Assembly (NCBI GenBank): GCA_900318015.1
Contig: ONJB01000006.1
Coordinates: 9,658 to 73,657, forward strand
From: an uncultured Bacteroidales bacterium
GTDB taxonomy: Bacteria; Bacteroidota; Bacteroidia; Bacteroidales; UBA932
DNA length: 64,000 nt
Reading direction: 5' to 3'
Below are positions 1-14,010 of this stretch, one piece after another. Under the pieces are notes generated by a model, which ran no database searches, was not told the origin of the DNA, and was given only the letters and a program-made list of their open reading frames with translations. The translations under genes and the position numbers were made by a program. Position 1 is the first letter of the stretch. Each line of letters starts with the position of its first letter.

Positions 1-1830
1 ATGGCGGACGCCCTGGTGGCGGTGGAGATCCTCGTAATCATACTTGCTCACGTCCGTCTGGAAACCCGCGAAGCTATCGCCCACGGGATCGTAGTCGTCG
101 ATGAGCATCGGCGCGCTGGAGAAGATGTTGGGCGCCGTGCTGTTGGAATAGAAGGTGCGCTGCTGGTCGACCGTCTTCCCTTTACCGTCCGAGGAAATCC
201 ATACCTTGCTTCCGTCGGTATAGACCGCCCCCTCGTTCTTCCAGTTGGGAACGCCGGTGGACATGATCGTATTGTTGGGCATGCAGGTCACATATTCCCC
301 GTCCACCTTCAGGACGATGGAAGTCGATTCGTAGCAGGCGTTCATCGCCACCACGGCCCCGTCATGGGCCTTGAACACGTCGGAGGTGCGCACATCCGGC
401 ACCGAGGAGGTGAACTTGAGCGCGTAGCCCGGCGCCGACATGTCCCAGTCGGCGATGAAGATACGCTGGGCGGCGCCGTCCACGTTACCTTCGAACCGGC
501 GGTAGGTCAAGCCGGGAGCCACTTCCTTGACAGTCCATCCCTTGTCCTCCGAACGGAACACGAACTGGTCCGTACGCGCCTTCAGGTAGGCCTTCACATC
601 GTTCCAGCGGTAGTACGGGAAGCCTTCCAGGTCACCCAGGTGCGCCTCTTCCCCATTGAGAAGAACCTTCACGAGGGTATCCCCGGACTTGCCTTTCTTC
701 GGATTGAAGAAGATGAACTGGATGTTGGCGGCCATCGGGGAGCGGAAGGTCTGGAACCAATAGACCAGGTCGTCCTGATGGGCCGGAGCCCGGTCGAAGC
801 CATCCAGGTCCATGATCAGCTCGAGCGCCATCACCACGTGGTCGTGGCCGTAGCGCAGGTCGGCGCCGCGGCTGCCGGCGGTCAGGCGCTGCGTTGCCTT
901 CTCCACCATATCATCCACAATGGACGAACAAGGCGTCCGGTAGGCGTGATACTCGCGGAAACGCTCGTAGTTGTCCGTCTCCCAGAGGGTCGCGAACTCC
1001 TCCACCGTGAAGAAGTCCTTCACGTCGATGCGCACGTCCTGCGGCAGGCTGTTCATGCCGGCCACGAACATGTACAGGTGGAAGAACACATTGTACGGAT
1101 TACGCTGTCCCAAGGCCTTGTCCGGATTCTTGAAGAAGCGGGCGAGAACGTCCTTGTAATTCGGGAAATGGCGGAGGAAGAACCGCTCGGAGCTCTCGGG
1201 ATAAGGGAATACCTCCTCGGGGCCCTGATACTTGAACGGGTTCGATCCCTGGTTGGGCCGCGTCGCCTGCACGTCCATAATCCCCTGGTGCTCATACACG
1301 GAAGTCTCCGGCGCCAGGCGGGAAAGGGCCGCGCAGCAGGAGGACATGCTCATGATGGAGCGGACCGAAGGCGAAGAGCAGGCATCGACGGAACTCCCCT
1401 TCCCGAACACGGTCGGGTAGTTCTTCACCATCGTCCGGGCAATCTCCTGGTGCTGGTTCCAGCCGATTTCGGTGAGGTCGCCCACGCGATACTGCACATA
1501 CTCCCAGAAAGGCTCCAGGTCGTTGAGCAGGCTTTCGCCGCGGGCGGTGAGGTTCCCCTCGCGCCGGCCTTCGGCAAGCATGTTCAGGATGATGGAATAG
1601 GCGTCTCCGGTATAGGCATACCGGGAGCCGTGGCGGCCGTAATGGCTGATATAGACGGCTTCATACCCCTTTGGAACAGGGGTCAAGGCCTTCGGGGACA
1701 GGTCCAGCAGACAATCCAGTCCAGAGGACTTGTTCCAGTCCGCACGCACTTCCTCCCGGACGCCGAGGCGCTGGGCGCCGGCCGTCAGGCAAAGGAACAG
1801 GGAAAGAGCCAGAATCAGGTGTTTTTTCAT
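1..1830 (-). CDS. Secreted histidine acid phosphatase fused to a C-terminal phosphodiester glycosidase (NAGPA/DUF2233-like) domain; 3' end runs off the window (not in the ORF track)
   Basis: Manual translation from ATG at 1830: MKKHLILALSLFLCLTAGA-Q signal peptide; HYGRHGSRY and YGHDHV phosphatase motifs. From about nt 540 it reads TGVPNWK...SSAPMLIDDYDPVG...HRHQGVRH, paralogous to the 3840-4904 protein just before its RHPRTA motif. No stop found down to nt 1. Confidence 0.82.
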   Translation of the reverse strand, partial: MKKHLILALSLFLCLTAGAQRLGVREEVRADWNKSSGLDCLLDLSPKALTPVPKGYEAVYISHYGRHGSRYAYTGDAYSIILNMLAEGRREGNLTARGESLLNDLEPFWEYVQYRVGDLTEIGWNQHQEIARTMVKNYPTVFGKGSSVDACSSPSVRSIMSMSSCCAALSRLAPETSVYEHQGIMDVQATRPNQGSNPFKYQGPEEVFPYPESSERFFLRHFPNYKDVLARFFKNPDKALGQRNPYNVFFHLYMFVAGMNSLPQDVRIDVKDFFTVEEFATLWETDNYERFREYHAYRTPCSSIVDDMVEKATQRLTAGSRGADLRYGHDHVVMALELIMDLDGFDRAPAHQDDLVYWFQTFRSPMAANIQFIFFNPKKGKSGDTLVKVLLNGEEAHLGDLEGFPYYRWNDVKAYLKARTDQFVFRSEDKGWTVKEVAPGLTYRRFEGNVDGAAQRIFIADWDMSAPGYALKFTSSVPDVRTSDVFKAHDGAVVAMNACYESTSIVLKVDGEYVTCMPNNTIMSTGVPNWKNEGAVYTDGSKVWISSDGKGKTVDQQRTFYSNSTAPNIFSSAPMLIDDYDPVGDSFAGFQTDVSKYDYEDLHRHQGVRH

Positions 1831-1842
1831 TTTTCAGTTTGG

Positions 1843-3135
1843 TCAAAAGGTTTCATACAAGTCGATGGCATGGGAGAACCGACGCTCCAGGTCGGCGAAC
1901 GGATAGAGGCCGTCGGCATTGGCCGAAAGACCTTCCAGGCGCAGCTGGAGCGCCATCGGAGGGTTGTCCGGGGAGAGGACGGACACCTCCCGGAGCTGGT
2001 CGGCGGAAGCATAGACGAGCCAGATGTCGGCATACAGTTTCCCGTCCCGTCCGCGGAACTTCTCGAAGAGGATTTTCCCGCCGATCGGGGTTTTCGTCTC
2101 GATGGCGCCGGGGGCGTCGTACGGCTCGGCTCCGAGCGCCGCGAGGACACTGCCGATGTTGGAGTCGTGGCCGCAGAGGAAGGCGAACTTTCGGCCGGGG
2201 GTCCGGAGTTCCGCCAGGAGTTCCTGCAGCATCGGGTGCGCCACGTTCGCGGCCACGCTGGGGGCGGCGAACAGAACCTCCTGGTACCAGTCTTTCACGG
2301 AGGAGAGTCCGGCCCATTCCTCCCGGGTCAGTTTGTGTCCGAACCCGGCTTTCAGCACATCCGGTTCCTCATAATACTGGAGCGTGAGGGCGTCCGAGGC
2401 CGAGCAGGCCATCTTCAAGCCGCCGGTCATGGCGGGCTCCTTGTTCAGTTCGAAACGGACGGCCGAGGGGAAGGCTCCGAACGTCGTCGTATCGTGTGCG
2501 GCCGCCGGACTGGACTTGATGTCCAGGACTTTCTCGAGCAGCGCGTACTTCGCCTTCAGCGGCCCGTCCGGACCGCCCATGGCGAAAATCTCCGCGTAAG
2601 CCTTCGTGATGAAACGGTCGGAAAGCCTGGTAATCTGGGGGTTGAATACGGGGTCCATCGTTCCCAGCGGCGTGTGCTGTTCCACGTCGATATCGGCCAT
2701 CGGGAACATCCCGGCGGCGAAAGCGCGGGCCGTAGCGCGGGTGCGCTGGATGGAATTGGCATAGAAGCGGACGCTGCCCGCTTCCGGGACGCCGTCCTTG
2801 GCGAAAAAGCCTTCACCCACGAGCCACTCCCGGAAGAACTGGCCCATTTCCATCTCGAGCGCGCCGCCCCGGAGTGACAACTCGCCGGGGGCGGAACTCC
2901 AGGCAAACCATTCATGCGGGGTAATCCGGGACAGCACGGATCCCGGTCCACTGATGGGCGAACGGATGTTGTGCCGACTCAGGATGACCATCTCCTCCCG
3001 CGCATAGCGGTCGGCGAAGCCGGCCGGGCGCGGCTGGAAGGCGGTGCCTTCAGAGGCAACGCTCCCGGGCGCCAGCCGGGGGCTGCAGGAGGCGAGCAGC
3101 AGAACCGCCGCCGCAAAGACAGACAACCGTTTCAT
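1843..3135 (-). CDS. Histidine acid phosphatase lipoprotein, Agp (glucose-1-phosphatase/phytase)-like
   Basis: Lipobox LLLASC; SRHNIRSP (RHxxRxP) and CGHDSNI motifs closely resemble those of E. coli Agp. Confidence 0.85.
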   Translation of the reverse strand: MKRLSVFAAAVLLLASCSPRLAPGSVASEGTAFQPRPAGFADRYAREEMVILSRHNIRSPISGPGSVLSRITPHEWFAWSSAPGELSLRGGALEMEMGQFFREWLVGEGFFAKDGVPEAGSVRFYANSIQRTRATARAFAAGMFPMADIDVEQHTPLGTMDPVFNPQITRLSDRFITKAYAEIFAMGGPDGPLKAKYALLEKVLDIKSSPAAAHDTTTFGAFPSAVRFELNKEPAMTGGLKMACSASDALTLQYYEEPDVLKAGFGHKLTREEWAGLSSVKDWYQEVLFAAPSVAANVAHPMLQELLAELRTPGRKFAFLCGHDSNIGSVLAALGAEPYDAPGAIETKTPIGGKILFEKFRGRDGKLYADIWLVYASADQLREVSVLSPDNPPMALQLRLEGLSANADGLYPFADLERRFSHAIDLYETF

Positions 3136-3836
3136 TATTTGGCGTTCTCTTGAAGTACTTTTTTCAGGATCGGGGTAATCACTTTCTCCATTTCCGTGTA
3201 CCCGGCGGCGTTGGGGTGGATGGAATCCTTCTGATACGCCTTCTTCAGGCCCAGTTCCTCATCCACCAGGACGGAATAGTAATCGGCATAAGCGATGCCG
3301 GCTTGGTCGGCCCAGGTCTTGATCATGCCATTGAGGACTGGGATATAGTCCTGCGGGCGGAAACCCGGGACCTTGGGAAAGCTGTTGGAGGGCGGTACCG
3401 ACCCGACGATGACCGGGATGCCGGCATCCCGGGCCAGCTTGGCCATCGATTTCAGCCGCTCGAGGATGGACTCGAGCGTCGTCGCGGCGATGTCATTGGT
3501 CCCGCCTTCGATGACGACGCAGTGCGGGTCCAGGTCGACGACATCCGCCTTGAAACGGGCCAGCATGTCACTCGTCTTGTTCCCGCTGATTCCCTTGTTC
3601 ACATAGTTGTTGGACGAGAAAAACGCGGGGTGGCCGACGCCCTGCCGCTCCCACTGCCAGGTGATGCTGTCGCCGATGAAGACGGCTACCGGCCCCTTGT
3701 GCCGGGTGTCGAGAACGAGCGGCGGCTCCGGTGGAGGCAGATCCGGCAGGTCCGGCGTCGGTCCCTTCCTGCAGGAAACCAGGAAGAGCGCCCCTGTAAG
3801 CAGGAGGAGCAGGGAAATGAATAATCGTCTCGACAC
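3135..3836 (-). CDS. SGNH/GDSL hydrolase lipoprotein (putative esterase/O-deacetylase)
   Basis: Lipobox FLVSC; blocks GDSIT, KGISG, GGTND and DSIHPN (catalytic S, G, N, D-x-x-H); GTG start. Confidence 0.85.
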   Translation of the reverse strand: MSRRLFISLLLLLTGALFLVSCRKGPTPDLPDLPPPEPPLVLDTRHKGPVAVFIGDSITWQWERQGVGHPAFFSSNNYVNKGISGNKTSDMLARFKADVVDLDPHCVVIEGGTNDIAATTLESILERLKSMAKLARDAGIPVIVGSVPPSNSFPKVPGFRPQDYIPVLNGMIKTWADQAGIAYADYYSVLVDEELGLKKAYQKDSIHPNAAGYTEMEKVITPILKKVLQENAK

Positions 3837-3839
3837 GGC

Positions 3840-4904
3840 TTACTGGGCTTCCAGGATAACGAAATGTGTATCCCGCGCACGCTGCTTGTCCTCCCGTCCG
3901 CCGGTGTCGCAAGGCTTGTTGACGACGTGTGTCTCCGAATTACCCAATCCTTCGACACACATCGCCGTGGAACCGCCGCCGTCCATATTCAGCGCGTACT
4001 GCGGGTTGAAGTACTTCACCAGGAACTGGGTCAGCTCCTTGGCCGACATGCCGTTGCTGATGTTGGTACGGCCGTCCACGACGAACAGGATGAGATGGTT
4101 GTCGTGCGTGAGGGCCACCGCCGTGCGGGGATGCCGCTTGCGCTGGTGATGCTGCGGATGTTCCGAGTTCAGACTGCTCCAGTTGTTGACGGAATTGTCG
4201 ATGAAGGTCTCCCCGACGGGGTTGTAGTCATCGAGCAACATCGGCGCGCTGGAAATGAGGTATTTGTCCGTGCGCTGCATGTAGAAGTTGCGCTGTTTCG
4301 TCACCAGGGCCTGGTAATCGTCGGGAGCCTTGTAGGGACGGATCAAGTCGCCTGCCTTCGTGATGCTGACATTCCGGACGCCGTCGCAGAAGAATGCGGC
4401 TTCGCTCTTCCAGTTGGGCACGCCGGTCGTCGAAATCTGCGTATTGGGAATGGCGGACTTGGTGGAACCGCCCACGCGGATGAAGATCGACCCGGCCTCA
4501 TAGCCGGCATTCACGGTCGCGATCGCGTGGTTGTTCTTATGGACATCGGACGTCACTGCAGCCGGCGACGTATAGGTCAGCGCGACGGTATACTTCGGGT
4601 TCGACAGGTCCAGGTCGACAGCGAAAGCCTCCTGGCTGACCCCGGTGACCACATCCTTGCCGGAATAGGCATAGTAGGTGATGCCTTCGCGGACTGACGA
4701 GACCGTCCAGCCGTTTCCGGAGTTCGGCCGGACCACCTTGCCGCGGTTCGCTTCCCAGGCGGGCGTTTCATCGCCACCGCCACCCTGCTCGCCGCCGGAA
4801 GGGCTCGGTGGCGGGGGAATCAGGTCGGGGTTGTCCTTCCCCCCGCAGGACCAGACCAGCAGGGGGAGGAAAACCGCGATGTAATAAAGGCTTCTGCGTT
4901 TCAT
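3840..4904 (-). CDS. Phosphodiester glycosidase family (NAGPA/DUF2233-like) lipoprotein
   Basis: Lipobox LVWSC, Pro/Gly linker, RHPRTAVA, VVDGR and ALNMDGGGS motifs typical of the family. Confidence 0.85.
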   Translation of the reverse strand: MKRRSLYYIAVFLPLLVWSCGGKDNPDLIPPPPSPSGGEQGGGGDETPAWEANRGKVVRPNSGNGWTVSSVREGITYYAYSGKDVVTGVSQEAFAVDLDLSNPKYTVALTYTSPAAVTSDVHKNNHAIATVNAGYEAGSIFIRVGGSTKSAIPNTQISTTGVPNWKSEAAFFCDGVRNVSITKAGDLIRPYKAPDDYQALVTKQRNFYMQRTDKYLISSAPMLLDDYNPVGETFIDNSVNNWSSLNSEHPQHHQRKRHPRTAVALTHDNHLILFVVDGRTNISNGMSAKELTQFLVKYFNPQYALNMDGGGSTAMCVEGLGNSETHVVNKPCDTGGREDKQRARDTHFVILEAQ

Positions 4905-4905: not shown

Positions 4906-7038
4906 CTACTTCAGTTTCGGCAGGTCGGCGCTGAAGTCCCAGACATCGGCGCTCCAGCCCATCTCGACAGCCTTGGCGGAAAGGGTGCCTTCTGCGCCGA
5001 CGTAATTGTCCTTGACGTCCGCGGAACCGTCCTTGACCGCTCCGGCGAAAGGCAGGGAGGCATTCCAGCCGATACAGGAAGAGATGGCGGCGGTATTCAC
5101 GTCCACACTGCCGGCAAAGATACCGGTCTTGGCGTCCGTGCCGGTCACTTCCCCCGCGGCATAGCAGTTCGTCACGACGATCAGGCCCTTGGCGATGCCG
5201 ATGAAGCCGCCCACATTGGCCCGGCTGCCGCCTTCCACCTGGATGGTGGAGTAGCTGTCGGTAATCTGGCACTTCAGGGTGGCATTCCCCTCAGGATAGC
5301 CGGCAAAGCCGCCCACCTGGGTATTGCCCGCCGTAATGGTGCCGCCGATCACCGCGCACTTGCTGATGGCGGGGTGATAGTCGACGCCGACGAAACCGCC
5401 GGAGTTCTGGCCGCCGCTGATGGTCGCGTTCTCCACGACGCATTTGGTGATTACGGAGCCCTCGTGGCGTCCCGCCTGGCCGACGAAGCCACCGACACGC
5501 TTGGAAGAAGGGGCGTTGATGACGACGTCCTTCACCTGGCAGTTCTCGAAGACGGCCGCCTTGTTGATGTTGCCCGTGAAGCCGCCCACATACTGGATGG
5601 CGTTGGGAGAATTGACCGTGACACCGGTCACCGTACAGTTCTCGATACGGGCGCCGGCCGCATCCGGATACCCCATGAAACCACCGACATTGTTGGTGGT
5701 GCCGCCCGTGACCGTGCTGTTCTGGATGTGGCAGTCGGAAATGGTCGTCACTACGGCCACCTGCGCAACGACGCCGCCCATGGAACTCGTGCCGGTGACG
5801 GAAGAATTCTTCACGGTCACACCCGTCAGCGAGCACGGATACAGATTGGCGCTCGTACCCACATAACCAGCCACCACGCCCGTCTTGTTGCCACCGGCAT
5901 CGATCTTGGCGCCGTCAAAGGTGACGTCCTTGATCGTGCCGTACAGCACGCCGGCAAAACTGGCATACGAGGTCTCCCCTACCGTGAGGTTGGAAATGGT
6001 ATGTCCGGCGCCGTCGAAGTCGATGAACTTGTTGAAAGGATCGACGTTGTTCAGCGGCACCCAGTCGATGCCGGTCATGTCGATGTCGGCCCCCAGTTTC
6101 GCATACCGGATTGAACCTTCCGCGAGGTCGCCGGCCAGATAGGCCAGCTGCTCCGGCGTTTCGATGATCCAGGGAGCCGCCTTCGTCCCCTTGCCGCCGG
6201 CATAATGGGCGTTCTGGGCTTCGTCGGCCCAGCCGCCGCCGGCGAGGGTGAAGAGGTTCACCACGCCCGTCTCCAGGGTGGCCTTCTTCGAGAACAGCAC
6301 ATCCCGGCTGAGCAGCTTGTCGTTACCGCCCAGGACGACGTAGAGCGTCGCGCCGGAAGGCACCTCGGCCGCATTCCAGGAGGTATTGAACCAGGCCGTC
6401 AGGACGCCGTCTTCGGGCGTGCAGTCGGTCAGGTTGAGCTGGAGCTTGTCCGTCTTCTCCTCATCGCCGTTGCCTTTGTAGAAAAGGGGCGTATCGGCGG
6501 AGACGGCGATCGAAGCAGGTTCCGTGATTCCATCGGGCACCTCGACGGTGAGCTTCAGGACGCCGGTCTGCTTGAGGGTACCGGCATGCTCTGCGGCCCA
6601 CGCGGGGTCGAAGGCAAAGGTGAAATAGTCATCGACATTCTCGAGCGCCGCCTCATAACGGAGGTGAGCCAGGCTGTTGTTGCCCTTCTGGGTCTGGAGG
6701 CTCCAATCCGTCTCGAGGGCGTCCTGGCCGGGATAGAGGATGGTGAAGGTCTTGCCCTTGACGGGTCGGCCGACGAACTCGGCTTTCTTGGGCGAAAATC
6801 CTTCCTTGATCTTGAAGACCTCCGTGGTCTCACCGATGACAGTGATCTTGTCACCCGCATTCCAGGTCCAGGAAAGCTTCGTCTCCAGGCCGGCACCGCG
6901 CGTGGCGGGCGCGTCGGGGAGGATGGCGCTGATGGTCACCAGATCGTCCGGACCGGAAACCAGATCCGGTTCCACATCCTTACCGCAAGAGAAGACGAGG
7001 GCAAGGAGCGACAAGGCAAAGATGTATCTTGTTTTCAT
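4906..7038 (-). CDS. Surface lipoprotein with GLUG-like/parallel beta-helix repeats (putative substrate-binding accessory protein)
   Basis: Start reassigned to MKTRY (7038); lipobox LVFSC; repeated xGGFxG units in the C-terminal half; follows susD in the same orientation. Confidence 0.65.
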   Translation of the reverse strand: MKTRYIFALSLLALVFSCGKDVEPDLVSGPDDLVTISAILPDAPATRGAGLETKLSWTWNAGDKITVIGETTEVFKIKEGFSPKKAEFVGRPVKGKTFTILYPGQDALETDWSLQTQKGNNSLAHLRYEAALENVDDYFTFAFDPAWAAEHAGTLKQTGVLKLTVEVPDGITEPASIAVSADTPLFYKGNGDEEKTDKLQLNLTDCTPEDGVLTAWFNTSWNAAEVPSGATLYVVLGGNDKLLSRDVLFSKKATLETGVVNLFTLAGGGWADEAQNAHYAGGKGTKAAPWIIETPEQLAYLAGDLAEGSIRYAKLGADIDMTGIDWVPLNNVDPFNKFIDFDGAGHTISNLTVGETSYASFAGVLYGTIKDVTFDGAKIDAGGNKTGVVAGYVGTSANLYPCSLTGVTVKNSSVTGTSSMGGVVAQVAVVTTISDCHIQNSTVTGGTTNNVGGFMGYPDAAGARIENCTVTGVTVNSPNAIQYVGGFTGNINKAAVFENCQVKDVVINAPSSKRVGGFVGQAGRHEGSVITKCVVENATISGGQNSGGFVGVDYHPAISKCAVIGGTITAGNTQVGGFAGYPEGNATLKCQITDSYSTIQVEGGSRANVGGFIGIAKGLIVVTNCYAAGEVTGTDAKTGIFAGSVDVNTAAISSCIGWNASLPFAGAVKDGSADVKDNYVGAEGTLSAKAVEMGWSADVWDFSADLPKLK

Positions 7039-7052
7039 AATCTGATGCATTT

Positions 7053-8765
7053 TTAGTTGAAGAAGTCGTGTTCGGGATAGTCCGGGAGCTGGCCGCCGGC
7101 GTTGACGGTCTCATCATCACCACCGCCGGTTCCGGCCTTGAGGGTCGGGATCGGGCCGCTGAAATCCCACACGGAATCGCTCCAGCCCAGGGAACGGGCC
7201 AGGGAGGTGACGGTGGCGTCCGCAGGCGCCGCCAGACCATGGTACGCGAAGTCATAGGTGTTCGTGCCGCACACCAGCGGAGTGCCGGGACCGGCGTTCC
7301 CCTGGTTGGTGACCACGTACCCGAGCTCGGCGTTCTTCTCACACTCCGAGAATGCGATTCCGGCCTTGCGGAAGCAGTTGACCAGGAAATTCTGCGTCGC
7401 CGTGAAGCCGACGACGACACCGCTGCTGTAGTGCTCGGCCCCGTCCGTCGCCCGGGACTTGATTTCGTCATTCCAGGCGATACAGCCCTCGACATGGTTG
7501 TTGGGGGTGTTGGTACCGTTTGCATTCTTCTGGTCCAGGTTCGCATGACCGAGGATACCGGCATACTGGAAGGAGCCCTCGACCGTCATCAGCGAGAAGC
7601 AGTTGTACATGGCGGATTCGGCCTTGATGAAGCCGCCGCCGATACCGCCCACCTTGGAACCGGCCTTGACATGGCCCTTCGTCCAGCAATCGCTGACCGT
7701 GGAGGCACCCGTGTCATAACCGAAGAGGCCGCCCACGTAGTCCTCACCGCTCTCGATCTCCACATCGGCGGAGCAGGCGGTAATATTGGCGCCGCAGATA
7801 CGTCCGAAAAGGGCGCCCGTACCGTTCTTGTTACCACCCGGGGAAGTCACCCGGCCCTGGACATGGACGCGATGCGCTTCGCCAGCCTTCAGGACTCCGC
7901 TGACCGTCGTGCCGCAGTAACTGCCGATGATGCCGGTGGCGCCGCCAACGGCGCTCTCGATCACGGCATTCGCGAAAGTCACGTCGTGCACATTACCATA
8001 CAGCACGCCGAAGAAGCTCGGGTAGTTGGCGAAGGTGGACGTGAAGTTCGAGATCGTATGGCCGCCGCCGTCGAAGTCGATGCAGTTGTCGTAGGGCGAC
8101 GCGAAGTTGAGCGGGACCCAGTCGATGCCTTCCATGTCGATGTCGGCCTTCATGCGGAAATAGACCTTGGTCCCGGGGACCAGCAGCTCGGACATCTTCA
8201 GCATGTCCGCCGCCGTGTAGAGGTTGTACGGATCGTTCTTGGTGCCGGAACCGGCATCCGGGGCCACATAGGCCCGCTTGACGAGCACATAGGCATAAGG
8301 GGAAGAGGAGCGCTCCCAGTTGTCGGTACCGATCACCTCGTCGATGGTGACGGGGACCACGTAGATGACGTCTTCTTCCATGCCGGAAGCCGAAATCTTG
8401 AGTTTGGCCGAGGTGGATGCCTTGCCGTAGCGGGGCATCAGCACCTTGTTGGTCGTGAACTCATACGCCGAACCCGGGCACATCTGGTAGTTGGTGCCGT
8501 GGGTGCTGTTGTACGCAGCGGCGCCGTCAGGGTCGACCTTCAGCGTCAGGTTGAGGACGAGGTCCGAAACCGCTTCGGCATAGGCCTGCACGTCCACGGT
8601 CTTGCTCTTGCCGGGGACGATCTCGATGACTTCTTCAAGGTCCGGAGCGCCGGCATAGAACACGCCCTTCATCTGCGAAACGGGCGGCTGCGGCTCCTTT
8701 TCGCGGCAGGCCGTGAAGGCCAGCGCGAAGGAAAGGAGAAGGAGATAGGATATAATTCTTTTCAT
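7053..8765 (-). CDS. DUF1735 (BT_3987-N-like) lipoprotein with a C-terminal GLUG-like/beta-helix region
   Basis: Lipobox AFTAC; DLVLNLTLKVDPDGAAAYNSTHGTNYQMCP...YVVPVTI resembles DUF1735; typical SusE/F position directly after susD. Confidence 0.7.
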   Translation of the reverse strand: MKRIISYLLLLSFALAFTACREKEPQPPVSQMKGVFYAGAPDLEEVIEIVPGKSKTVDVQAYAEAVSDLVLNLTLKVDPDGAAAYNSTHGTNYQMCPGSAYEFTTNKVLMPRYGKASTSAKLKISASGMEEDVIYVVPVTIDEVIGTDNWERSSSPYAYVLVKRAYVAPDAGSGTKNDPYNLYTAADMLKMSELLVPGTKVYFRMKADIDMEGIDWVPLNFASPYDNCIDFDGGGHTISNFTSTFANYPSFFGVLYGNVHDVTFANAVIESAVGGATGIIGSYCGTTVSGVLKAGEAHRVHVQGRVTSPGGNKNGTGALFGRICGANITACSADVEIESGEDYVGGLFGYDTGASTVSDCWTKGHVKAGSKVGGIGGGFIKAESAMYNCFSLMTVEGSFQYAGILGHANLDQKNANGTNTPNNHVEGCIAWNDEIKSRATDGAEHYSSGVVVGFTATQNFLVNCFRKAGIAFSECEKNAELGYVVTNQGNAGPGTPLVCGTNTYDFAYHGLAAPADATVTSLARSLGWSDSVWDFSGPIPTLKAGTGGGDDETVNAGGQLPDYPEHDFFN

Positions 8766-8778
8766 GTTGCGGGTCCGT

Positions 8779-10581
8779 TTAGAATTTCAAACCGTCATTC
8801 CAGCCCGGGTTCTGGGTGAGCGCGCCTCCCGTGAGGTTGCGGTCGTCCGTCGGGATGGGATACAAGTAGTCCCTGTCTTCATTCCAGGTGCGGGAGACGT
8901 CGCTGTGCAGCAGGATCATGCCGGCGTCGCCGTCCTTGAGGATGACGTCGGAGCCGAGTTTCTTGGTCACCGCGGCGCTGGAGGTGGCGGAGGCGGCATA
9001 GACCTCGAAGTCGGCAGTTCCGTTACCATCCAGGTCATAGACGCCCACACCGGGGAGATACATGCCATAGAAAGGAGCCTCGAAGACCTTGCCTTCCTTC
9101 CAGCGCATCAGGTCGTAGTAACGGTGGCCTTCCTGGCAGAGTTCGATGGCGCGTTCGCGGCGGATCTCCAGGATGACACCCTTGTTGGCGTCGGCGGCGA
9201 GCACGGAGCTCTGGTAGCCGCCGAAAGCGGGATTGGTGAGAAAAGCGTCCGGATTGGCATTGGCATCGGCCAGGCTCAGGTGGGGCATGCCCACGCGGTC
9301 ACGCAACTTGTTGACGGACAGGTCCAGGTCTTCCTGCGTCAGGGTGCCTGCGTCGGCCAGGGCCTCGGCGTAGTTGAGCATGACCTCCGCGGCGCGGAAG
9401 ATGATCAGGTCGATGTCCGAGTTGTTGTAGGAATCCTGGTCCAGCGTGGTCACATACTTGTCCGGATGGTAGCCCGTGAAGGACACCTTCAGGTCGGGGG
9501 CCGTGAAGGTCTCCTGGTCCATGCGCTTGTAACCGGGGGTACGGATACTCTGCGCCAGGCGCGGGTCGCGGTCCTGGGTCTCCTGCTGAAAAGTCATCGT
9601 CTCCCAGCCGGCCTTGTCGGTGAAGCGGGAGCCGTCCTTCATCAGGTAGCTGGCCACCAGCTTGCGGGTCATGGCGGGGCAGCCCATCGAACCGACCGTC
9701 ATCGTGTTGCCGGAACTGTGGACGGCGCCGTACGCCTTGTTATAGTCGCGGGCGAGGATCACCTCGTCCATCAGGTCGGTGGCATTCATAGTGGTGAACA
9801 GTTCATGATAGCTCGTGTTCACGTCGCCGGAATGCAGGCCGTAACCGCTGGACTGGATGAACTCCAGGGAAACCTTGGCGCATTCGGCCAGATACCACTT
9901 GTAATCCTTGGCATTGGCAGGCAGGGTAGCCAGGGAGGCATCGCCTGCATGGTACTTCCGGTAAGTACCTTCGAACAAGAGGACGCGGGATTTCAGGGCC
10001 ATCGCCGTCCACTTGGTCACCTCATAGGCGCTCTTGGTGGTGGGGAGGTTCCCAATGGCAAAGTCCAAGTCTTCGATCATCTTCTCCATGATCAGCTCAC
10101 GGCTGTCGCGGGGCTTGTTGAGCAGCTCGGTGTCCGTGGAGCCGATGGGTTTGTCATACCACGGGACGTCGCCGAAGCGCTTGACCTTGGCGAAATAGAA
10201 GTAGGCGCGGAAGAAACGGGTAAGGGCCTCATAGTGGAGGCGGACCTGCTCGTCCGGGCAATTGCCGATGTTTTCGAGCAGGGTATTGATGTTGCGGAGG
10301 GCCGACCAGCTCCAACCGCTTCCGCTGGCCGGGATGGTCCGCTTGCCCATGCCCTCGTTGGACATGTTGTTCTGGGTGTAGTGGTCGTCGTTGGCCACAT
10401 ACAGGTCTGAACCGGGGAACAGCTCGTAGAAGCCGATGGAGTAGGCCTGGAGCTCACTCTCGCTCTTGAAGAACGTGTCGGCGGAAAGCCGGTCCTTGGG
10501 AACGGCGTCCAACAGGTCGTCGCAGCCGGTGAAAGCGAATCCGGCCAGGAGCATCAGTACGGGAATGATTATCTTTTTCAT
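8779..10581 (-). CDS. susD: SusD/RagB family nutrient-binding lipoprotein
   Basis: Lipobox AFTGC; RFFRAYFYFAKVKRFGDVPW, FRAAEVMLNYAEA, ILEIRRERAIELCQEGHRYYDLMRWK and C-terminal QNPGW; adjacent to susC. Confidence 0.93.
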   Translation of the reverse strand: MKKIIIPVLMLLAGFAFTGCDDLLDAVPKDRLSADTFFKSESELQAYSIGFYELFPGSDLYVANDDHYTQNNMSNEGMGKRTIPASGSGWSWSALRNINTLLENIGNCPDEQVRLHYEALTRFFRAYFYFAKVKRFGDVPWYDKPIGSTDTELLNKPRDSRELIMEKMIEDLDFAIGNLPTTKSAYEVTKWTAMALKSRVLLFEGTYRKYHAGDASLATLPANAKDYKWYLAECAKVSLEFIQSSGYGLHSGDVNTSYHELFTTMNATDLMDEVILARDYNKAYGAVHSSGNTMTVGSMGCPAMTRKLVASYLMKDGSRFTDKAGWETMTFQQETQDRDPRLAQSIRTPGYKRMDQETFTAPDLKVSFTGYHPDKYVTTLDQDSYNNSDIDLIIFRAAEVMLNYAEALADAGTLTQEDLDLSVNKLRDRVGMPHLSLADANANPDAFLTNPAFGGYQSSVLAADANKGVILEIRRERAIELCQEGHRYYDLMRWKEGKVFEAPFYGMYLPGVGVYDLDGNGTADFEVYAASATSSAAVTKKLGSDVILKDGDAGMILLHSDVSRTWNEDRDYLYPIPTDDRNLTGGALTQNPGWNDGLKF

Positions 10582-10592
10582 AGCGGGATTCA

Positions 10593-13500
10593 TTAAAGGG
10601 TGATGTCAATGCCGAAGACGTAGCTCTTCTGCCAGGGATAGATGCGCATGTTGCCGCCCGTCATGGCCATTTCAGGATCCACGTATCTGCCGTGCAGGCC
10701 GGGCGCCCAGAAGAACAGGTTTTCGCCGGTGAAATACAGACGGAGCTTAGAGATGGCGATCTTCTTGGTCAACTTCTCCGGAAGGGTGTAGCCGAAGGTG
10801 AGGTTCTTCAGACGCAGGTAGCCGATATTCTGCAGGTAGCGGTCGTTCACCACACCCAGGGGACGGTTCGCATTCATGGCGATATAGCCGCGGGGGCGCG
10901 GGAAGAAAGCGTTCGGATTCTCCTCGCTCCAGCAGTCGTTCAGGAAGTCCTTCGGGATGAAGGTCATGTAAGGACGGGCGTAGGGACCCCAGAAGTTACG
11001 GGCATCCGCAGCCGGATACCAGTCCATCTTGCCGATGCCCTGGAAGAAGACCGCAAGGTCGAAGCCGAACCAGGATGCGTTCAGGTTCACGCCATAGTTG
11101 TAGCGCGGCTTGCTGTTGCCGATGATCTGCCAGTCGCCGCTGTCACCCACCTTCTCGGCCCCCTTGTTGATGGCGCCGTCGCCGTCCAGGTCGGCGAACT
11201 TCATGTCGCCGGCGAAGAGGCCGTTCGGGAAAATCTGCGCGTCGTTCACCTTGCTCTGGTCCACGGCATAGCTCTTCGCTTCCTCGTCGGTGGCGAAAAG
11301 GCCGGCGATGTGGTAACCCCAGATGTCACCGTATTTCTGACCCTCCCAGTACGTCTTCGCGAAGAGCTTGTCCGGGTTGTTGAAGCGGGTGATGTGGGAC
11401 ACGTAATCGGAGAAGACCACGCTCACGCCGTAATGGAAGGATTCGGAGCCCAGCTTGAAGGCATCCCTCCAGCCCAGGGTGAGTTCATAACCCTTGGTAC
11501 GGAGGTCGGCCGTGTTCTCCTGCGGGGTGGAAGCGCCGTACACAGCCGGGAGAGGCTCACCGGCGGTGAGCATGTCCTTGGTGTCACGGATATAGCCTTC
11601 GGCACTGAATTCCAGGCGGTTACCCAGGAAGGCCAGGTCCACACCCAGGTTGCTCTGGAGGGAGCGCTCCCAGGTGAGGCCCGAGGAAACCGGGGCGGAC
11701 AGGGAGGCCTGCGGCAGGTTCGCGCCGCCCAGCAGGTAGGAGGACTTGCCGCTGGTGGAGACGGTCCGGATAGCCGGATAGTAGGAGCTCATCTGCTGGT
11801 TGCCCAGCTGGCCGTAGGAGAAGCGGATCTTGAAGTTGTCCCACCAGGTACGCAGCGGCGAGAAGAACGGCTCTTCGGACACTCTCCAACCCAGGGAAGC
11901 GGACGGGGAGAACACCCAGCGGCTGCCGCGGAGGAAGCGGGAAGAACCGTCGTAACGGCCGTTCAGCTCCAGCAGGTAGCGACCCTTGTAGTCATAGTTC
12001 AGACGGGCGAAGTAACCCGCGAGCTTGTACTCGTTCTGGCCACCGGAGGTTTCCATGCGCTTCTTGCCGTCCGGATCGTTAGGATCGGCGCCGATGAGGT
12101 TCTGGTCGTTCAGCTCCGTCGAATACAGGTAGTAACCGATGGCACCCAGGTCCTTGATCCAGCGGGTCTCGTAGTTCACGCCTGCCATCAGCTTGAGGTT
12201 GTGGGCCTTATTGAAGCTGTTCTCGTAGGTGGCGTACAGGTTGTAGGCCTGGTAGATATTGGTGTTGGCACTCTCGGAAAGCTTGTCCAGGAACGGGGAT
12301 GCGTCAGCCTTGGTCTCAACCACATTGGGGTACTTGGAATAGTAACCCGGCACCGCACGGTTCATGTAGCGGTTGTACTTGAGCGTGTAGGTGTAGTCGC
12401 CCTTGATGGTGAAACCCTTGAACGGCTTCAGGGTGAAGTCCACGGTCTCGCTCAGGTTGTCCACCTTGTCCTCGTTGAAGTTGTCCTCGGCGAGGAGCAT
12501 CAGGAGACCGTCCATGATCGTATATCCGTTGTACTTGGTGTAGTACAGGGAGGTACCGTCCGGATTCGTGGCGGGATAGCTCGCAAGGCCGTGGCCGGAG
12601 CTCTTCGCGAAATTGTTGTTGATGCCACCCTGGCCCGGATAGAAGTAGGAGCTGTTGAAGTAGCTCGTGTTGGAGCCGATCCGCAGCCAGTCGGTCACGT
12701 CGAAGGAGATCTTCGCGCGCAGGTTCACGCGCGAATAATTATCGGGCTTTTCCTTGAACATGCCCTGCTCGTACGTGTAACCGCCGGAGACCAGGTAGCT
12801 CACATGGTTGGTGGCGCCGCTGGCCGAGATGGTGTGGTTCGTGGTGGGCTTGACGTCATTGTACAGGACGTGCCACCAGTCCGTATTCGCGTAATAATTG
12901 TAGACGTCCTGGCCGTTCTCCTGCGTAATCACCACCCAGGGGCGCTCGGGATTCTCCACCTTGTCATTCCGCCGGGCCCACAGTTCCTGCATGTCCGCAT
13001 CGGAGTAGTTGGCATACTTGGTACCCGGGCTGTAGGTACCCCAGAAGAGGTTGTTCAGATAGACGGAGTCATAGCCGCGGCTCTCGTAGTCGGTCCGGGT
13101 AGTCGGAGCGGTGACGCCAAAGCGGCCGCTGTAGGAGACCTTGGCGCGGCCTTCCTTTTCCCGGCTGCCGTTCTTGGTGGTCACAAGGATCACGCCGGCC
13201 GAGCCGCGGGCGCCGTAGATGGCGGCCGCGGCGGCGTCCTTGATGACGGAGATGCTCTCCACGTCCACGGGGTTGACATACTGGATGTCACCTTCCACGC
13301 CGTCAATGAGGACGAGCGGGCTGCCCCCGTTGATGGAGTTCCAACCACGGATGTTGAGCGAGGCGGCCTGGCCGGGACGGCCGGAACCTGACGTGATGTT
13401 CAGGCCAGGGACGGTACCCTGCAGCATGTGGCCCACGTCCAGGGCGGAACGGTCCTTGAGTTCGTCGGCCTTCACCACGGAGACGGCGCCGGTGAGGTTT

Positions 13501-13844
13501 TCTTTCTTCTGGGTGCCGTAGCCCACGACCACGGCGTCTTCCAGGATATTCTGGTCCTCCTCAAGCACCACCAGGAGCTGGCGGCGGCCCTGGACGGGCA
13601 CCTGCTGCGACACATAGCCGAGGCAGGAAACTTCGAGGACAGCGTTGGGATCGACGCTGATGGAGAAGGATCCATCCGCGTCCGTTGTCACGCCGGTACT
13701 GCCGGAAAGCACGACGGCCCCGATGACGGGGCCATTGGCATCCGACACCGTACCGCGTACAGCAATCTTTTGGGCAAAGGCGCCAAAAGAGACGGTCATA
13801 CCGAGAAGTATGGCCAGTACGCTGAACAGTTTCTTGGATAACAT
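10593..13844 (-). CDS. susC: SusC/RagA family TonB-dependent transporter
   Basis: VVVGYGTQKKENLTGAVS, NPVDVESISVIKDAAAAAIYGARGSAGVILVTTK, RYDGSSRF, LRLKNLTFGYTLP and terminal FGIDITL. Confidence 0.96.
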   Translation of the reverse strand: MLSKKLFSVLAILLGMTVSFGAFAQKIAVRGTVSDANGPVIGAVVLSGSTGVTTDADGSFSISVDPNAVLEVSCLGYVSQQVPVQGRRQLLVVLEEDQNILEDAVVVGYGTQKKENLTGAVSVVKADELKDRSALDVGHMLQGTVPGLNITSGSGRPGQAASLNIRGWNSINGGSPLVLIDGVEGDIQYVNPVDVESISVIKDAAAAAIYGARGSAGVILVTTKNGSREKEGRAKVSYSGRFGVTAPTTRTDYESRGYDSVYLNNLFWGTYSPGTKYANYSDADMQELWARRNDKVENPERPWVVITQENGQDVYNYYANTDWWHVLYNDVKPTTNHTISASGATNHVSYLVSGGYTYEQGMFKEKPDNYSRVNLRAKISFDVTDWLRIGSNTSYFNSSYFYPGQGGINNNFAKSSGHGLASYPATNPDGTSLYYTKYNGYTIMDGLLMLLAEDNFNEDKVDNLSETVDFTLKPFKGFTIKGDYTYTLKYNRYMNRAVPGYYSKYPNVVETKADASPFLDKLSESANTNIYQAYNLYATYENSFNKAHNLKLMAGVNYETRWIKDLGAIGYYLYSTELNDQNLIGADPNDPDGKKRMETSGGQNEYKLAGYFARLNYDYKGRYLLELNGRYDGSSRFLRGSRWVFSPSASLGWRVSEEPFFSPLRTWWDNFKIRFSYGQLGNQQMSSYYPAIRTVSTSGKSSYLLGGANLPQASLSAPVSSGLTWERSLQSNLGVDLAFLGNRLEFSAEGYIRDTKDMLTAGEPLPAVYGASTPQENTADLRTKGYELTLGWRDAFKLGSESFHYGVSVVFSDYVSHITRFNNPDKLFAKTYWEGQKYGDIWGYHIAGLFATDEEAKSYAVDQSKVNDAQIFPNGLFAGDMKFADLDGDGAINKGAEKVGDSGDWQIIGNSKPRYNYGVNLNASWFGFDLAVFFQGIGKMDWYPAADARNFWGPYARPYMTFIPKDFLNDCWSEENPNAFFPRPRGYIAMNANRPLGVVNDRYLQNIGYLRLKNLTFGYTLPEKLTKKIAISKLRLYFTGENLFFWAPGLHGRYVDPEMAMTGGNMRIYPWQKSYVFGIDITL

Positions 13845-13878: not shown

Positions 13879-13886
13879 CAAAGTTA
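13879..13886 (-). promoter_or_regulatory. Bacteroidota -7 promoter box for susC
   Basis: Reverse complement reads TAACTTTG, matching TAnnTTTG, about 35 nt upstream of the susC ATG. Confidence 0.7.
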
Positions 13887-13920
13887 TGCATTCTCGGGGA
13901 AAAAAGGGCGGCCGCTCCGG

Positions 13921-14010
13921 AAATAGTAGATGTCCCGCGGGCTTCAACCCAAACAAATCATTGATAATCAAGAATAACCAAAACAATCCATCCCCCTTAA
14001 ATAGTAGATG
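13921..14010. repeat. Exact 12-bp direct repeat AAATAGTAGATG, 78-bp period; candidate regulator binding sites
   Basis: Copies at 13921-13932 and 13999-14010 in the susC/regulator divergent intergenic region. Confidence 0.6.

What the first reader, a model, noticed from the sequence alone, without database searches (positions are those of the whole stretch)
1..1830. Unannotated histidine phosphatase-phosphodiester glycosidase fusion
Seen: the ORF track gives only the antisense shadow (1..2877 +). The minus strand encodes a signal peptide, an RHGSRY/HD phosphatase domain (about 1770-560) and a NAGPA-like domain sharing TGVPNWK and SSAPMLxDDYxPVG with the 3840-4904 gene. Inference: one polypeptide could cleave a sugar-phosphodiester and then remove the exposed phosphate, performing two consecutive steps.
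Basis: partly seen in the sequence, partly recalled or inferred. Interest (0 to 1): 0.66.

Follow-up and report, generated by a model that had tools for sequence, protein, structure and literature searches.

The report
Phosphatase fused to phosphodiester glycosidase
A rumen/hindgut-type Bacteroidales bacterium makes one exported 702-residue protein that joins an acid phosphatase to an "uncovering-enzyme"-type sugar-phosphodiester glycosidase inside a glycan-uptake operon. This is probably a two-step tool for stripping sugar-phosphate links from phosphorylated glycans, but nobody has tested it at the bench.

Summary
The minus strand of window 1-1830 encodes a real gene. The parts are an SPI signal peptide (AGA|Q), a MINPP-like branch-2 histidine acid phosphatase (aa ~49-427; RHGSRY, R157, H329-D330 all invariant), a 3-residue linker and a NAGPA/DUF2233 domain (aa 431-702, DGGGS invariant). 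The + strand ORF 1..2877 is an antisense shadow.

The gene is ninth of ten tightly packed genes of a SusC/SusD operon. The other enzymes in the operon are a second NAGPA, an SGNH esterase, an Agp-like phosphatase and an EEP phosphoesterase. There is no classical glycoside hydrolase.

Comparative evidence favours coupled action of the two domains:
- Orthologues exist with the domain order swapped.
- NAGPA-fused phosphatase domains fall in at least 4 separate clades.
- The same phosphatase type is fused elsewhere to EEP, GDPD and Metallophos phosphoesterases.
- Every adjacent gene pair I looked at in this operon occurs fused somewhere.
- A close relative lacks both the PUL core and the NAGPA domain.

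Substrate and sequential catalysis are inferred, not shown. Public homologues are named only "phosphodiester glycosidase family protein". Verdict: uncharacterised new variant of known kinds, moderate interest.

The parts
1..1830 (-). Window part (aa 1-610) of the 702-aa phosphatase-NAGPA fusion gene. The gene continues 279 nt beyond the left window edge to C47 9379.
   Evidence: full translation P0001; GC3 0.83; 727 homologues
1774..1830 (-). Signal peptide, aa 1-19 (MKKHLILALSLFLCLTAGA|QR). It is SPI type with Gln at +1, and there is no lipobox.
   Evidence: Sequence; A19 and Q20 invariant in 34 homologues. SPI cleavage and a periplasmic/OMV location are inferred from the sequence pattern.
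550..1686 (-). MINPP-like histidine acid phosphatase domain (branch 2), aa 49-427
   Evidence: phmmer vs PDB: 7r5y E 4.4e-39 over aa 49-425, BtMinpp 4fdt/5cx4 about 1e-30. Foldseek TM(target) 0.79-0.83. Pfam His_Phos_2 scores only 18.3 bits, below the cut-off of 23.6.
1618..1635 (-). RHGSRY, the catalytic fingerprint (R66, nucleophile H67, R70)
   Evidence: invariant; aligned to RHGSRY of 7r5y and RHGARF of BtMinpp
838..849 (-). GHDH with H329-D330, the HD proton-donor motif (not the HAE of canonical MINPPs)
   Evidence: the HAE/HD distinction is from PMC3969271
1..540 (-). NAGPA/DUF2233 phosphodiester glycosidase domain, aa 431-610 inside the window (to aa 702 outside it, including RHPRT 609-613 and DGGGS 661-665)
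   Evidence: Pfam PF09992 E 2.5e-25, 90 bits against a cut-off of 25. 3ohg and vertebrate NAGPA found by sequence and by fold. Motifs invariant.
238..258 (-). TGVPNWK motif, shared with the stand-alone NAGPA paralogue
79..120 (-). SSAPMLIDDYDPVG motif, shared with the stand-alone NAGPA paralogue
1..2877 (+). Antisense shadow ORF spanning two real minus-strand genes; not a gene
   Evidence: GC by codon position 0.82/0.42/0.60
1843..3135 (-). Agp-like histidine acid phosphatase lipoprotein (430 aa), 12 nt upstream of the fusion gene
   Evidence: Pfam His_Phos_2 3.3e-15; NCBIfam glucose-1-phosphatase/inositol phosphatase 3.9e-96, below the equivalog cut-off; not similar to the fusion's phosphatase domain by BLASTP
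3135..3836 (-). SGNH/GDSL esterase lipoprotein (233 aa)
   Evidence: Pfam Lipase_GDSL_2 2.2e-28
3840..4904 (-). Stand-alone NAGPA lipoprotein (354 aa), paralogue of the fusion's C-terminal domain
   Evidence: Pfam NAGPA 8e-24; 43% identity to the fusion's domain
4906..7050 (-). GLUG beta-helix lipoprotein (714 aa)
   Evidence: Pfam Glug 6.8e-19; 3n6z E 1.2e-19; GLUG-NAGPA fusions exist elsewhere (P0156)
7053..8765 (-). BT_3987-like_N plus GLUG-type lipoprotein (570 aa)
   Evidence: 3n6z E 2.8e-23
8779..10593 (-). SusD-like protein
10593..13844 (-). SusC-like TonB-dependent transporter
13886..15682 (+). Divergent DUF6377 protein, the presumed regulator of the locus
   Evidence: Pfam DUF6377 7.3e-62; the regulatory role is inferred

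Best explanation
The gene encodes a real, exported (periplasm or outer-membrane vesicles) bifunctional enzyme. Its C-terminal NAGPA-family domain probably cleaves the glycosidic C1-O bond of a sugar-1-phosphodiester (sugar-1-P-6-sugar or sugar-1-P-polyol) on oligomers imported by the operon's SusC/SusD pair. That releases the capping sugar and leaves a phosphomonoester. The N-terminal MINPP-like histidine acid phosphatase domain would then remove that phosphate through a phospho-His67 intermediate, with Asp330 as proton donor. The other operon enzymes would supply complementary routes: a surface NAGPA lipoprotein, an SGNH esterase, an Agp-like sugar-phosphate phosphatase and an EEP phosphoesterase. 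Together they would serve a phosphodiester-bridged, possibly O-acylated glycan such as teichoic-acid-type wall polymers, phosphomannan or phospho-N-glycans, or phosphorylated capsules. Shown here: the gene is real, the domain identities, the intact catalytic motifs, the operon membership and the recurrent fusions. Inferred: cellular location, substrate class, and that the two domains act consecutively on the same molecule.
For: - The gene is real and complete.
- Phosphatase domain: E 4e-39 to Prevotella MINPP 7r5y, TM 0.8.
- NAGPA domain: 90 bits.
- Invariant in 34 homologues: R66/H67/R70/R157/H329/D330, and RHPR(609-612), DGR(629-631), DGGGS(661-665).
- DGGGS is the motif shown to be essential for catalysis in human NAGPA (PMC13474241).
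- The ten genes from SusC to EEP are tightly packed, with gaps of 13 nt or less or overlaps. The EEP start overlaps the fusion's stop by 8 nt.
- Orthologue P0095/P0097 has the order NAGPA-phosphatase (69% and 59% identity per domain) in the same type of PUL.
- In a tree of 111 phosphatase domains, the NAGPA-fused ones lie in at least 4 separate supported clades.
- The same phosphatase type is fused to EEP (P0105/P0124), to GDPD (own genome C92; P0190) and to Metallophos (6 representatives).
- NAGPA-EEP, NAGPA-Agp-type, Agp-MINPP-type and GLUG-NAGPA fusions also exist.
- A relative at 88-92% nucleotide identity lacks exactly the 12.6-kb PUL core and the 897-bp NAGPA segment. The second gap is a whole number of codons.
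- Other contexts put the fusion next to EEP, GDPD, GH97 or GH31 genes.
- Precedent for the two-step logic with separate enzymes: GH92 followed by the EEP-fold phosphatase BT3783 on phosphorylated mannan or N-glycan (PMC4978465).
Against: - There is no biochemical evidence for any bacterial member.
- The phosphatase's closest solved relatives are phytate-degrading MINPPs, so inositol phosphates remain possible substrates.
- The same phosphatase type also fuses to carboxylesterases, an LD-carboxypeptidase and a C26 peptidase. Fusion may therefore reflect co-localisation rather than consecutive chemistry.
- Most family members are single-domain: 82 phosphatase-only and 23 NAGPA-only among 152 sequences (the 150 listed 50%-cluster representatives plus the two proteins of this genome).
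- A close relative works without the NAGPA domain.
- The relative position of the two active sites was not assessed (only pTM 0.67).
- The sugar specificity of the NAGPA domain is unknown.
Confidence: 0.6

Rival explanations
1. Co-localisation only. The two domains are independent exported phosphate- or sugar-scavenging activities tethered for joint export or vesicle packaging. They act on different substrates, for example the phosphatase on phytate or miscellaneous phosphomonoesters, with no consecutive reaction.
For: - The nearest structures are InsP6-degrading MINPPs, and BtMinpp is packaged in outer-membrane vesicles.
- The MINPP-conserved Arg (BtMinpp R183) aligns with the invariant R191.
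- The phosphatase domain fuses promiscuously, also to esterases and peptidases.
- At least five further matches to the phosphatase part lie elsewhere in the own genome.
Against: - The most frequent class of fusion partner is the phosphoester-cleaving folds: NAGPA, EEP, GDPD, Metallophos and MBL.
- Domain order is swapped among orthologues while the pairing is kept.
- The gene sits in a SusC/D operon in which every adjacent gene pair examined is found fused elsewhere.
- The proton donor is HD, not the MINPP hallmark HAE.
Confidence: 0.25
2. An inositol-phosphate glycolipid or headgroup system. The locus would degrade glycosyl-inositol-phosphoryl lipids such as plant or fungal GIPC/MIPC. The EEP would act as a sphingomyelinase-type phosphodiesterase and the MINPP-like domain would dephosphorylate the inositol phosphate.
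For: MINPP-type fold. The EEP superfamily includes sphingomyelinase-type phosphodiesterases (my own knowledge). HAP-EEP fusions occur in close relatives.
Against: The EEP gave no hit to any solved structure at E <= 0.01 and only weak NCBIfam hits. The idea does not explain two NAGPA domains with intact DGGGS. It rests on family-level resemblance only.
Confidence: 0.08
3. The NAGPA domain is a non-catalytic binding or targeting module, or it has a biosynthetic or remodelling role (JGI names homologues 'exopolysaccharide biosynthesis protein').
For: JGI annotation. No bacterial DUF2233 activity appears in the papers I could search or read.
Against: DGGGS, RHPR and DGR are invariant. D286 of DGGGS is catalytic in human NAGPA. 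The catabolic SusC/D context also argues against it.
Confidence: 0.05
4. Assembly or sequencing artefact: two neighbouring genes falsely joined.
For: The genome is a 106-contig draft, and raw reads could not be inspected.
Against: The same uninterrupted architecture occurs in more than 80 clusters from independent samples and sources, in another species of the genus (G008, 68% identity, no stops), and at 33-51% identity in distant representatives.
Confidence: 0.01

Closest known systems
Bacterial MINPP-type histidine acid phosphatases (Prevotella sp. CAG:617 MINPP, PDB 7r5y; Bacteroides thetaiotaomicron BtMinpp, 4fdt/5cx4)
   Same: End-to-end alignment of aa 49-425 (E 4e-39 and about 1e-30) and the same fold (TM about 0.8). 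RHGxR fingerprint present. The Arg equivalent to BtMinpp R183 is present (R191). N-terminal signal peptide and an exported location.
   Different: Fused to a second enzyme domain. HD (as in 7r5y and classical phytases) instead of BtMinpp's HAE. The RHGxRxP proline is replaced by an invariant Ala72. The gene lies in a PUL rather than standing alone. Activity on InsP6 is untested.
NAGPA 'uncovering enzyme' (vertebrates; 6pki, 6pku, human cryo-EM in PMC13474241) and BACOVA_00430 (DUF2233, PDB 3ohg)
   Same: Pfam PF09992 well above threshold. Fold match (TM to target 0.67 for 3ohg, 0.54-0.63 for vertebrate NAGPA). DGGGS loop and RHPR conserved.
   Different: Below 20% identity to the vertebrate enzymes. 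No EGF stalk, transmembrane segment or propeptide. Fused to a phosphatase. Sugar specificity unknown.
Yeast-mannan PUL of B. thetaiotaomicron: GH92 BT2629, then the EEP-fold phosphatase BT3783/BT2630 (Cuskin 2015, PMC4978465)
   Same: A PUL-encoded two-step removal of a sugar-1-phosphate cap: a glycosidase exposes a phosphomonoester and a phosphatase removes it. An EEP-family protein is in the locus.
   Different: There the steps are done by separate proteins of other families (GH92, EEP). Here a NAGPA domain and a histidine acid phosphatase sit on one chain. This operon has no GH at all. The EEP here is not detectably close to BT3783 by sequence.
CpdB/UshA-type periplasmic bifunctional phosphodiesterase-nucleotidases (my own knowledge)
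   Same: Works like them in logic: one exported two-domain protein converts a diester to a monoester and then to phosphate.
   Different: Unrelated folds (Metallophos plus 5'-nucleotidase C-terminal domain) and nucleotide substrates.
Mammalian mannose-6-phosphate pathway: NAGPA, then lysosomal acid phosphatases ACP2/ACP5 (my own knowledge)
   Same: The same two enzyme families (NAGPA; ACP2 is a branch-2 histidine acid phosphatase) act one after the other on the same glycan.
   Different: In mammals they are separate proteins in different compartments with a signalling role. Here they are one chain in a catabolic operon.

Membership tests
Histidine phosphatase superfamily, branch 2 (histidine acid phosphatases, PF00328) | Pfam model score above the gathering threshold | tested here: not met
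   18.3 bits against a cut-off of 23.6. The model is insensitive to this subfamily. Some relatives pass, e.g. the own-genome C92 HAP-GDPD protein at 40.6 bits and P0172 at 48.2 bits.
Histidine phosphatase superfamily, branch 2 (histidine acid phosphatases, PF00328) | RHGxRxP fingerprint with the nucleophilic His | tested here: met
   R66-H67-G68-S69-R70-Y71-A72. R, H, G and R are invariant in 34 homologues, and the final Pro is replaced by an invariant Ala.
Histidine phosphatase superfamily, branch 2 (histidine acid phosphatases, PF00328) | HD proton-donor motif and a third conserved Arg | tested here: met
   H329-D330 and R157 are invariant and align to the HD and Arg of 7r5y.
Histidine phosphatase superfamily, branch 2 (histidine acid phosphatases, PF00328) | Two-subdomain alpha/beta plus alpha fold | tested here: met
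   AF2 pLDDT about 90 over the domain. Foldseek E 1e-25 and TM(target) 0.79-0.83 to MINPP structures.
MINPP subclass | HAE tripeptide as proton donor (Stentz 2014, PMC3969271) | tested here: not met
   The sequence is GHDH (HD), as in Prevotella MINPP 7r5y.
MINPP subclass | Conserved Arg of the S2 pocket (BtMinpp R183) | tested here: met
   By the phmmer alignment, chain position 184 of BtMinpp aligns with the invariant R191. This rests on the alignment only.
MINPP subclass | Hydrolysis of InsP6 with positional promiscuity | not testable with these tools
   Needs an enzyme assay.
NAGPA / phosphodiester glycosidase (PF09992, DUF2233) | Pfam model above the gathering threshold | tested here: met
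   90.1 bits against 25, aa 512-699.
NAGPA / phosphodiester glycosidase (PF09992, DUF2233) | Invariant DGGGS loop with the catalytic Asp (PMC13474241) | tested here: met
   D661-G-G-G-S665, invariant in 34 homologues.
NAGPA / phosphodiester glycosidase (PF09992, DUF2233) | Three-subdomain alpha/beta fold of 3ohg/6pki | tested here: met
   Foldseek: 3ohg E 3.5e-12, TM(target) 0.67; vertebrate NAGPA E about 1e-9, TM(target) 0.54-0.63.
NAGPA / phosphodiester glycosidase (PF09992, DUF2233) | Hydrolysis of GlcNAc-alpha-1-P-6-Man (uncovering activity) | not testable with these tools
   Needs an enzyme assay. The sugar specificity of the bacterial members is unknown.
Polysaccharide utilisation locus (Sus-like system) | Adjacent susC/susD pair co-oriented with enzyme genes | tested here: met
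   SusC 10593-13844 and SusD 8779-10593, followed by eight co-directional genes with gaps of 13 nt or less.
Polysaccharide utilisation locus (Sus-like system) | At least one CAZy-type glycoside hydrolase or lyase | tested here: not met
   No GH or PL Pfam family in any of the ten genes. The NAGPA domains are the only predicted glycosidic-bond-cleaving modules.

The most novel reading that the evidence does not exclude
This operon is a prototype of a GH-less class of Sus-like loci devoted to glycosyl-phosphate polymers, such as teichoic-acid-type wall polymers of Gram-positive neighbours or phosphomannan and phospho-N-glycans. In it, NAGPA/DUF2233 enzymes are the depolymerases, and modular phosphatase-phosphodiesterase fusions (HAP-NAGPA, HAP-EEP, HAP-GDPD, HAP-Metallophos) finish the job. 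This would give bacterial DUF2233 its first physiological role and reveal a general 'diester then monoester on one chain' design.
Probability: 0.35. Interest if true: 0.75.

Novelty: new variant of a known kind. Interest (0 to 1): 0.55.

Why it matters
A bacterial DUF2233/NAGPA structure (3ohg) has been public since 2010, yet my searches found no paper assigning these proteins a substrate. How gut and rumen Bacteroidales consume phosphodiester-bridged glycans (teichoic acids, phosphomannans, phosphorylated capsules) is also largely unknown. This fusion, its order-swapped orthologue and its sister fusions give a concrete hypothesis that can be tested in a test tube: a glycosidase exposes a phosphate and the attached phosphatase removes it. 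They also point to a defined ten-gene locus to work with. If the hypothesis holds, it adds a new enzyme logic to PUL biology and offers tools for removing sugar-phosphate decorations from glycans.

Tried and rejected
- **Das et al. 2013 (DUF2233 paper).** The paper is not held, so what it says about bacterial architectures and activity could not be checked.
- **Literature searches.** Searches for 'phosphodiester glycosidase' + Bacteroides, DUF2233, PUL + NAGPA, and teichoic acid + PUL found no paper on this architecture.
- **NCBIfam.** No model matches the fusion protein.
- **EEP neighbour.** It had no hit to solved structures at E <= 0.01, so I could not tie it to BT3783 by sequence.
- **Order-wide sample.** A sample of 300 genomes from 208 genera found no orthologue at E <= 1e-90. 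I therefore rejected the idea that this orthologous group is widespread; it is narrow and patchy.
- **The two phosphatases as duplicates.** I rejected the idea that the Agp-like neighbour and the fusion's N-terminal domain are recent duplicates, because BLASTP finds no similarity.
- **+ strand ORF 1..2877.** Rejected as a gene.
- **P0106 (phosphatase + GLUG C-terminus).** I did not count it as evidence, because it needs a rearrangement and may be a chimeric metagenome contig.
Full report
**What is there**

The window is positions 9658-73657 of a 75.9-kb contig (C47) of a 3.2-Mb, 106-contig draft genome. On the minus strand, window 1-1830 is an ORF open at the window edge. I fetched the upstream DNA. 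The frame continues for 92 more codons to a TAA at C47 9379-9381, giving a 702-aa protein, P0001.

The long + strand ORF 1..2877 is an antisense shadow. Its high GC is in codon position 1 (0.82), whereas the minus-strand gene has GC3 0.83, like every neighbouring gene at 0.80-0.84.

**Anatomy of the protein**

| Residues | Feature | Evidence |
|---|---|---|
| 1-19 | SPI-type signal peptide, cleaved AGA/Q; A19 and Q20 invariant; no lipobox | |
| ~49-427 | MINPP-like branch-2 histidine acid phosphatase | |
| 428-430 | Short linker (FVFR-SED-KGW) | |
| 431-702 | NAGPA/DUF2233 phosphodiester glycosidase | |

All the neighbouring enzymes have lipoprotein signals instead of an SPI signal.

- **Phosphatase domain.**
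  - It aligns end to end with Prevotella sp. CAG:617 MINPP (7r5y, E 4.4e-39) and with B. thetaiotaomicron Minpp (about 1e-30).
  - An AlphaFold model built on 34 homologues (mean pLDDT 84.5, about 90 in this domain) superposes on those structures with TM(target) 0.79-0.83.
  - Pfam's His_Phos_2 model scores only 18 bits, below its 23.6-bit threshold. That explains why public records do not annotate this half.
- **NAGPA domain.**
  - Pfam PF09992 scores 90 bits.
  - Sequence hits go to BACOVA_00430 (3ohg) and to vertebrate NAGPA.
  - Fold matches have TM(target) 0.67 for 3ohg and 0.54-0.63 for vertebrate NAGPA.
  - It is 43% identical (E 1e-73) to the stand-alone NAGPA lipoprotein encoded at 3840-4904. 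The TGVPNWK and SSAPML(I/L)DDY(D/N)PVG motifs are shared.

**Both active sites look intact**

In an alignment of 34 full-length homologues at 60-93% identity, these positions are invariant:
- phosphatase: R66, H67, G68, R70, R157, H329, D330;
- NAGPA: R609-H610-P611-R612, D629-G630-R631, and D661-G-G-G-S665.

DGGGS is the loop that binds GlcNAc-1-P in the 2026 human NAGPA structures. Mutating its Asp (D286A) abolishes activity (PMC13474241).

The proton donor of the phosphatase is HD, as in 7r5y and classical phytases. It is not the HAE tripeptide that Stentz et al. give as the MINPP hallmark (PMC3969271). The MINPP-conserved Arg (BtMinpp R183) does align with the invariant R191.

**Genomic context**

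The gene is the ninth of ten co-directional genes with gaps of 13 nt or less, or overlaps:

1. SusC (10593-13844)
2. SusD (8779-10593)
3. BT_3987-like_N/GLUG-type lipoprotein (7053-8765)
4. GLUG beta-helix lipoprotein (4906-7050)
5. NAGPA lipoprotein (3840-4904)
6. SGNH esterase (3135-3836)
7. Agp-like histidine acid phosphatase (1843-3135)
8. The fusion (1830 to beyond the edge)
9. An EEP-family lipoprotein, whose ATG overlaps the fusion's stop codon by 8 nt (ATGAATAA)

A divergent DUF6377 gene, the tenth of the set, lies upstream at 13886-15682. No gene of the locus belongs to a classical glycoside hydrolase or lyase family. The only predicted glycosidic-bond-cleaving modules are the two NAGPA domains.

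About 10 kb away on the other strand lies a mannoside cluster: GH3, GH2, three GH92, GH125, GH130 and a phosphomannose isomerase. It is separated from this locus by housekeeping genes, so I do not count it as part of the locus.

**Comparative evidence that the pairing is functional**

1. **The architecture recurs.** It is found in more than 80 clusters at 60-98% identity from many samples. NCBI calls them 'phosphodiester glycosidase family protein' and JGI calls them 'exopolysaccharide biosynthesis protein'.
2. **Domain order is swapped in an orthologue.** A set of orthologues (P0095, P0097 and others, 727-731 aa) has the order NAGPA then phosphatase, at 59% and 69% identity per domain. P0097 sits in the same kind of locus: SusC, SusD, BT_3987-like, a 654-aa protein, NAGPA, GDSL, fusion. 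The pairing is kept while the order is not.
3. **Distant representatives share the architecture.** A scan of 1.84 billion representative proteins found further HAP-NAGPA proteins at 33-51% identity. In a maximum-likelihood tree of 111 phosphatase domains, the NAGPA-fused ones fall in at least 4 separate supported clades, and well-supported branches force 6 label changes. So the combination arose or was lost repeatedly.
4. **The same phosphatase type is fused to other phosphoester-cleaving folds:**
   - EEP (P0105, P0124);
   - GDPD (a 677-aa protein on contig C92 of this same genome, and P0190);
   - Metallophos (six representatives);
   - an MBL-fold domain.
5. **Neighbouring genes of this operon are fused elsewhere.** NAGPA-EEP (P0146), NAGPA-Agp-type phosphatase (P0132), Agp-type-MINPP-type (P0126) and GLUG-NAGPA (P0156) proteins all exist. 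Every adjacent gene pair I looked at in this operon is therefore found as a single chain somewhere.
6. **A close relative lacks both NAGPA-bearing segments.** A contig at 88-92% nucleotide identity (L011) is collinear with C47 but lacks exactly two segments. One is 12,573 bp (window 3109-15681: GDSL through the DUF6377 gene, i.e. the PUL core). The other is 897 bp, a whole number of codons, covering the NAGPA domain plus the EEP signal peptide. What remains is Agp plus a HAP-EEP fusion. The NAGPA modules and the uptake machinery are present or absent together in this pair of lineages.
7. **Other contexts place the fusion near related enzymes.** It lies next to an EEP gene in a SusC/D locus (L013), next to a GDPD gene with GH31 and GH97 nearby (L014), or next to GH97, an MFS transporter and GLUG proteins (L012).

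**Evidence that weakens the reading**

- The phosphatase type also fuses to carboxylesterases, an LD-carboxypeptidase, a C26 peptidase and a beta-propeller.
- Most members are single-domain.
- The orthologous group is narrow. It occurs in only 2-3 of 24 species of the genus. None of 300 genomes sampled over 208 genera of the order has an orthologue at E <= 1e-90.

**Most likely mechanism**

The protein is probably exported to the periplasm or to vesicles, as BtMinpp is. There the NAGPA domain would hydrolyse the C1-O bond of a sugar-1-phosphodiester on imported oligomers. That frees the sugar and exposes a phosphomonoester. The histidine phosphatase domain would then remove the phosphate through phospho-His67, with Asp330 as the acid.

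The other operon enzymes offer complementary routes:
- surface NAGPA: first cuts outside the cell;
- SGNH esterase: removal of O-acyl groups;
- EEP: cleavage on the phosphate side, or phosphatase action as in BT3783;
- Agp-like enzyme: sugar-1-phosphate hydrolysis.

The same logic with separate enzymes is documented in the B. thetaiotaomicron yeast-mannan PULs, where GH92 is followed by the EEP-fold phosphatase BT3783/BT2630 (PMC4978465). From my own knowledge, the same succession occurs in mammals, where NAGPA is followed by the histidine acid phosphatase ACP2.

The substrate is not identified. Candidates are teichoic-acid-type polymers (the GDPD, EEP, esterase and LD-carboxypeptidase associations point this way), phosphomannan or phosphorylated N-glycans (the BT_3987-like domain and nearby mannosidases), and phosphorylated capsules.

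I put about 0.6 on consecutive action on one substrate. I put about 0.25 on mere co-localisation of independent activities, which includes a phytase-like role for the phosphatase. The remainder goes to minor rivals.

**Comparison with what is known, and novelty**

Both domains belong to known families. Membership is met on fold and catalytic motifs. The Pfam threshold for His_Phos_2 is not met, nor is the HAE feature of canonical MINPPs.

The architecture is present in public databases but annotated only by its NAGPA half. I found no paper on it or on any PUL of this composition. An earlier unchecked note of this scan reports an analogous archaeal cysteine-phosphatase-NAGPA fusion. If correct, that would be a convergent case.

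I rate this a new variant of known kinds with moderate interest: ordinary parts, an uncharacterised and informative combination, and a directly testable hypothesis for the long-unknown function of bacterial DUF2233 proteins.

**Limits**

- There is no biochemistry.
- Das et al. 2013 could not be read.
- Inter-domain geometry was not analysed.

Noticed in passing
own genome contig C92, L015 1227-3260 (-): A second phosphatase fusion in the same genome: a 677-aa MINPP-like histidine phosphatase (RHGSR, GHD) joined to a GDPD glycerophosphodiesterase domain (PF03009 E 1.8e-32). It lies next to an M64 peptidase gene.
   Followed up: partly
L011 (Logan SRR33718295 contig) versus window 3109-15681 and window <1-553: A relative at 88-92% nucleotide identity lacks the whole 12.6-kb PUL core (GDSL to the DUF6377 gene) and also the 897-bp NAGPA-domain segment. 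It is left with Agp plus a HAP-EEP fusion. This is a presence/absence polymorphism of the locus.
   Followed up: partly
C47 9379-9386 (just left of the window): The EEP lipoprotein gene starts at an ATG that overlaps the fusion's last codons and stop (ATGAATAA), which suggests translational coupling. The GTG start listed by the ORF finder (L003 9422) is probably too far upstream.
   Followed up: partly
P0106 (668 aa, ENA metagenome): The phosphatase domain (95% identical) is joined directly to the C-terminal part of the GLUG lipoprotein. This needs a rearrangement, so it may be a chimeric contig or a real recombinant.
   Followed up: no
window 24309-44265 (+): A mannoside cluster without its own SusC/D in view: GH3, GH2, GH92 x3, GH125, GH130 and a phosphomannose isomerase. 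It lies about 10 kb from the phospho-glycan locus, and a functional link is possible but untested.
   Followed up: partly
representative proteins P0134, P0135, P0141, P0152: Tandem MINPP-like phosphatase-phosphatase proteins (about 820 aa). One has an added Metallophos N-terminal domain, and the two halves of P0141 are each other's closest relatives.
   Followed up: no
representative proteins P0156, P0159, P0160, P0181, P0186, P0194, P0201, P0209, P0212, P0228: About 950-1160-aa proteins with the NAGPA domain at the C-terminus. The one I scanned (P0156) has GLUG motifs in front, so the GLUG and NAGPA neighbours of this operon occur fused.
   Followed up: partly
window 1-13391 (+): Very long antisense shadow ORFs (1..2877, 7068..8819, 8764..10410, 10692..13391) run opposite the real minus-strand genes. 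This is a consequence of GC3 of about 0.8 and can mislead ORF tracks throughout this genome.
   Followed up: yes
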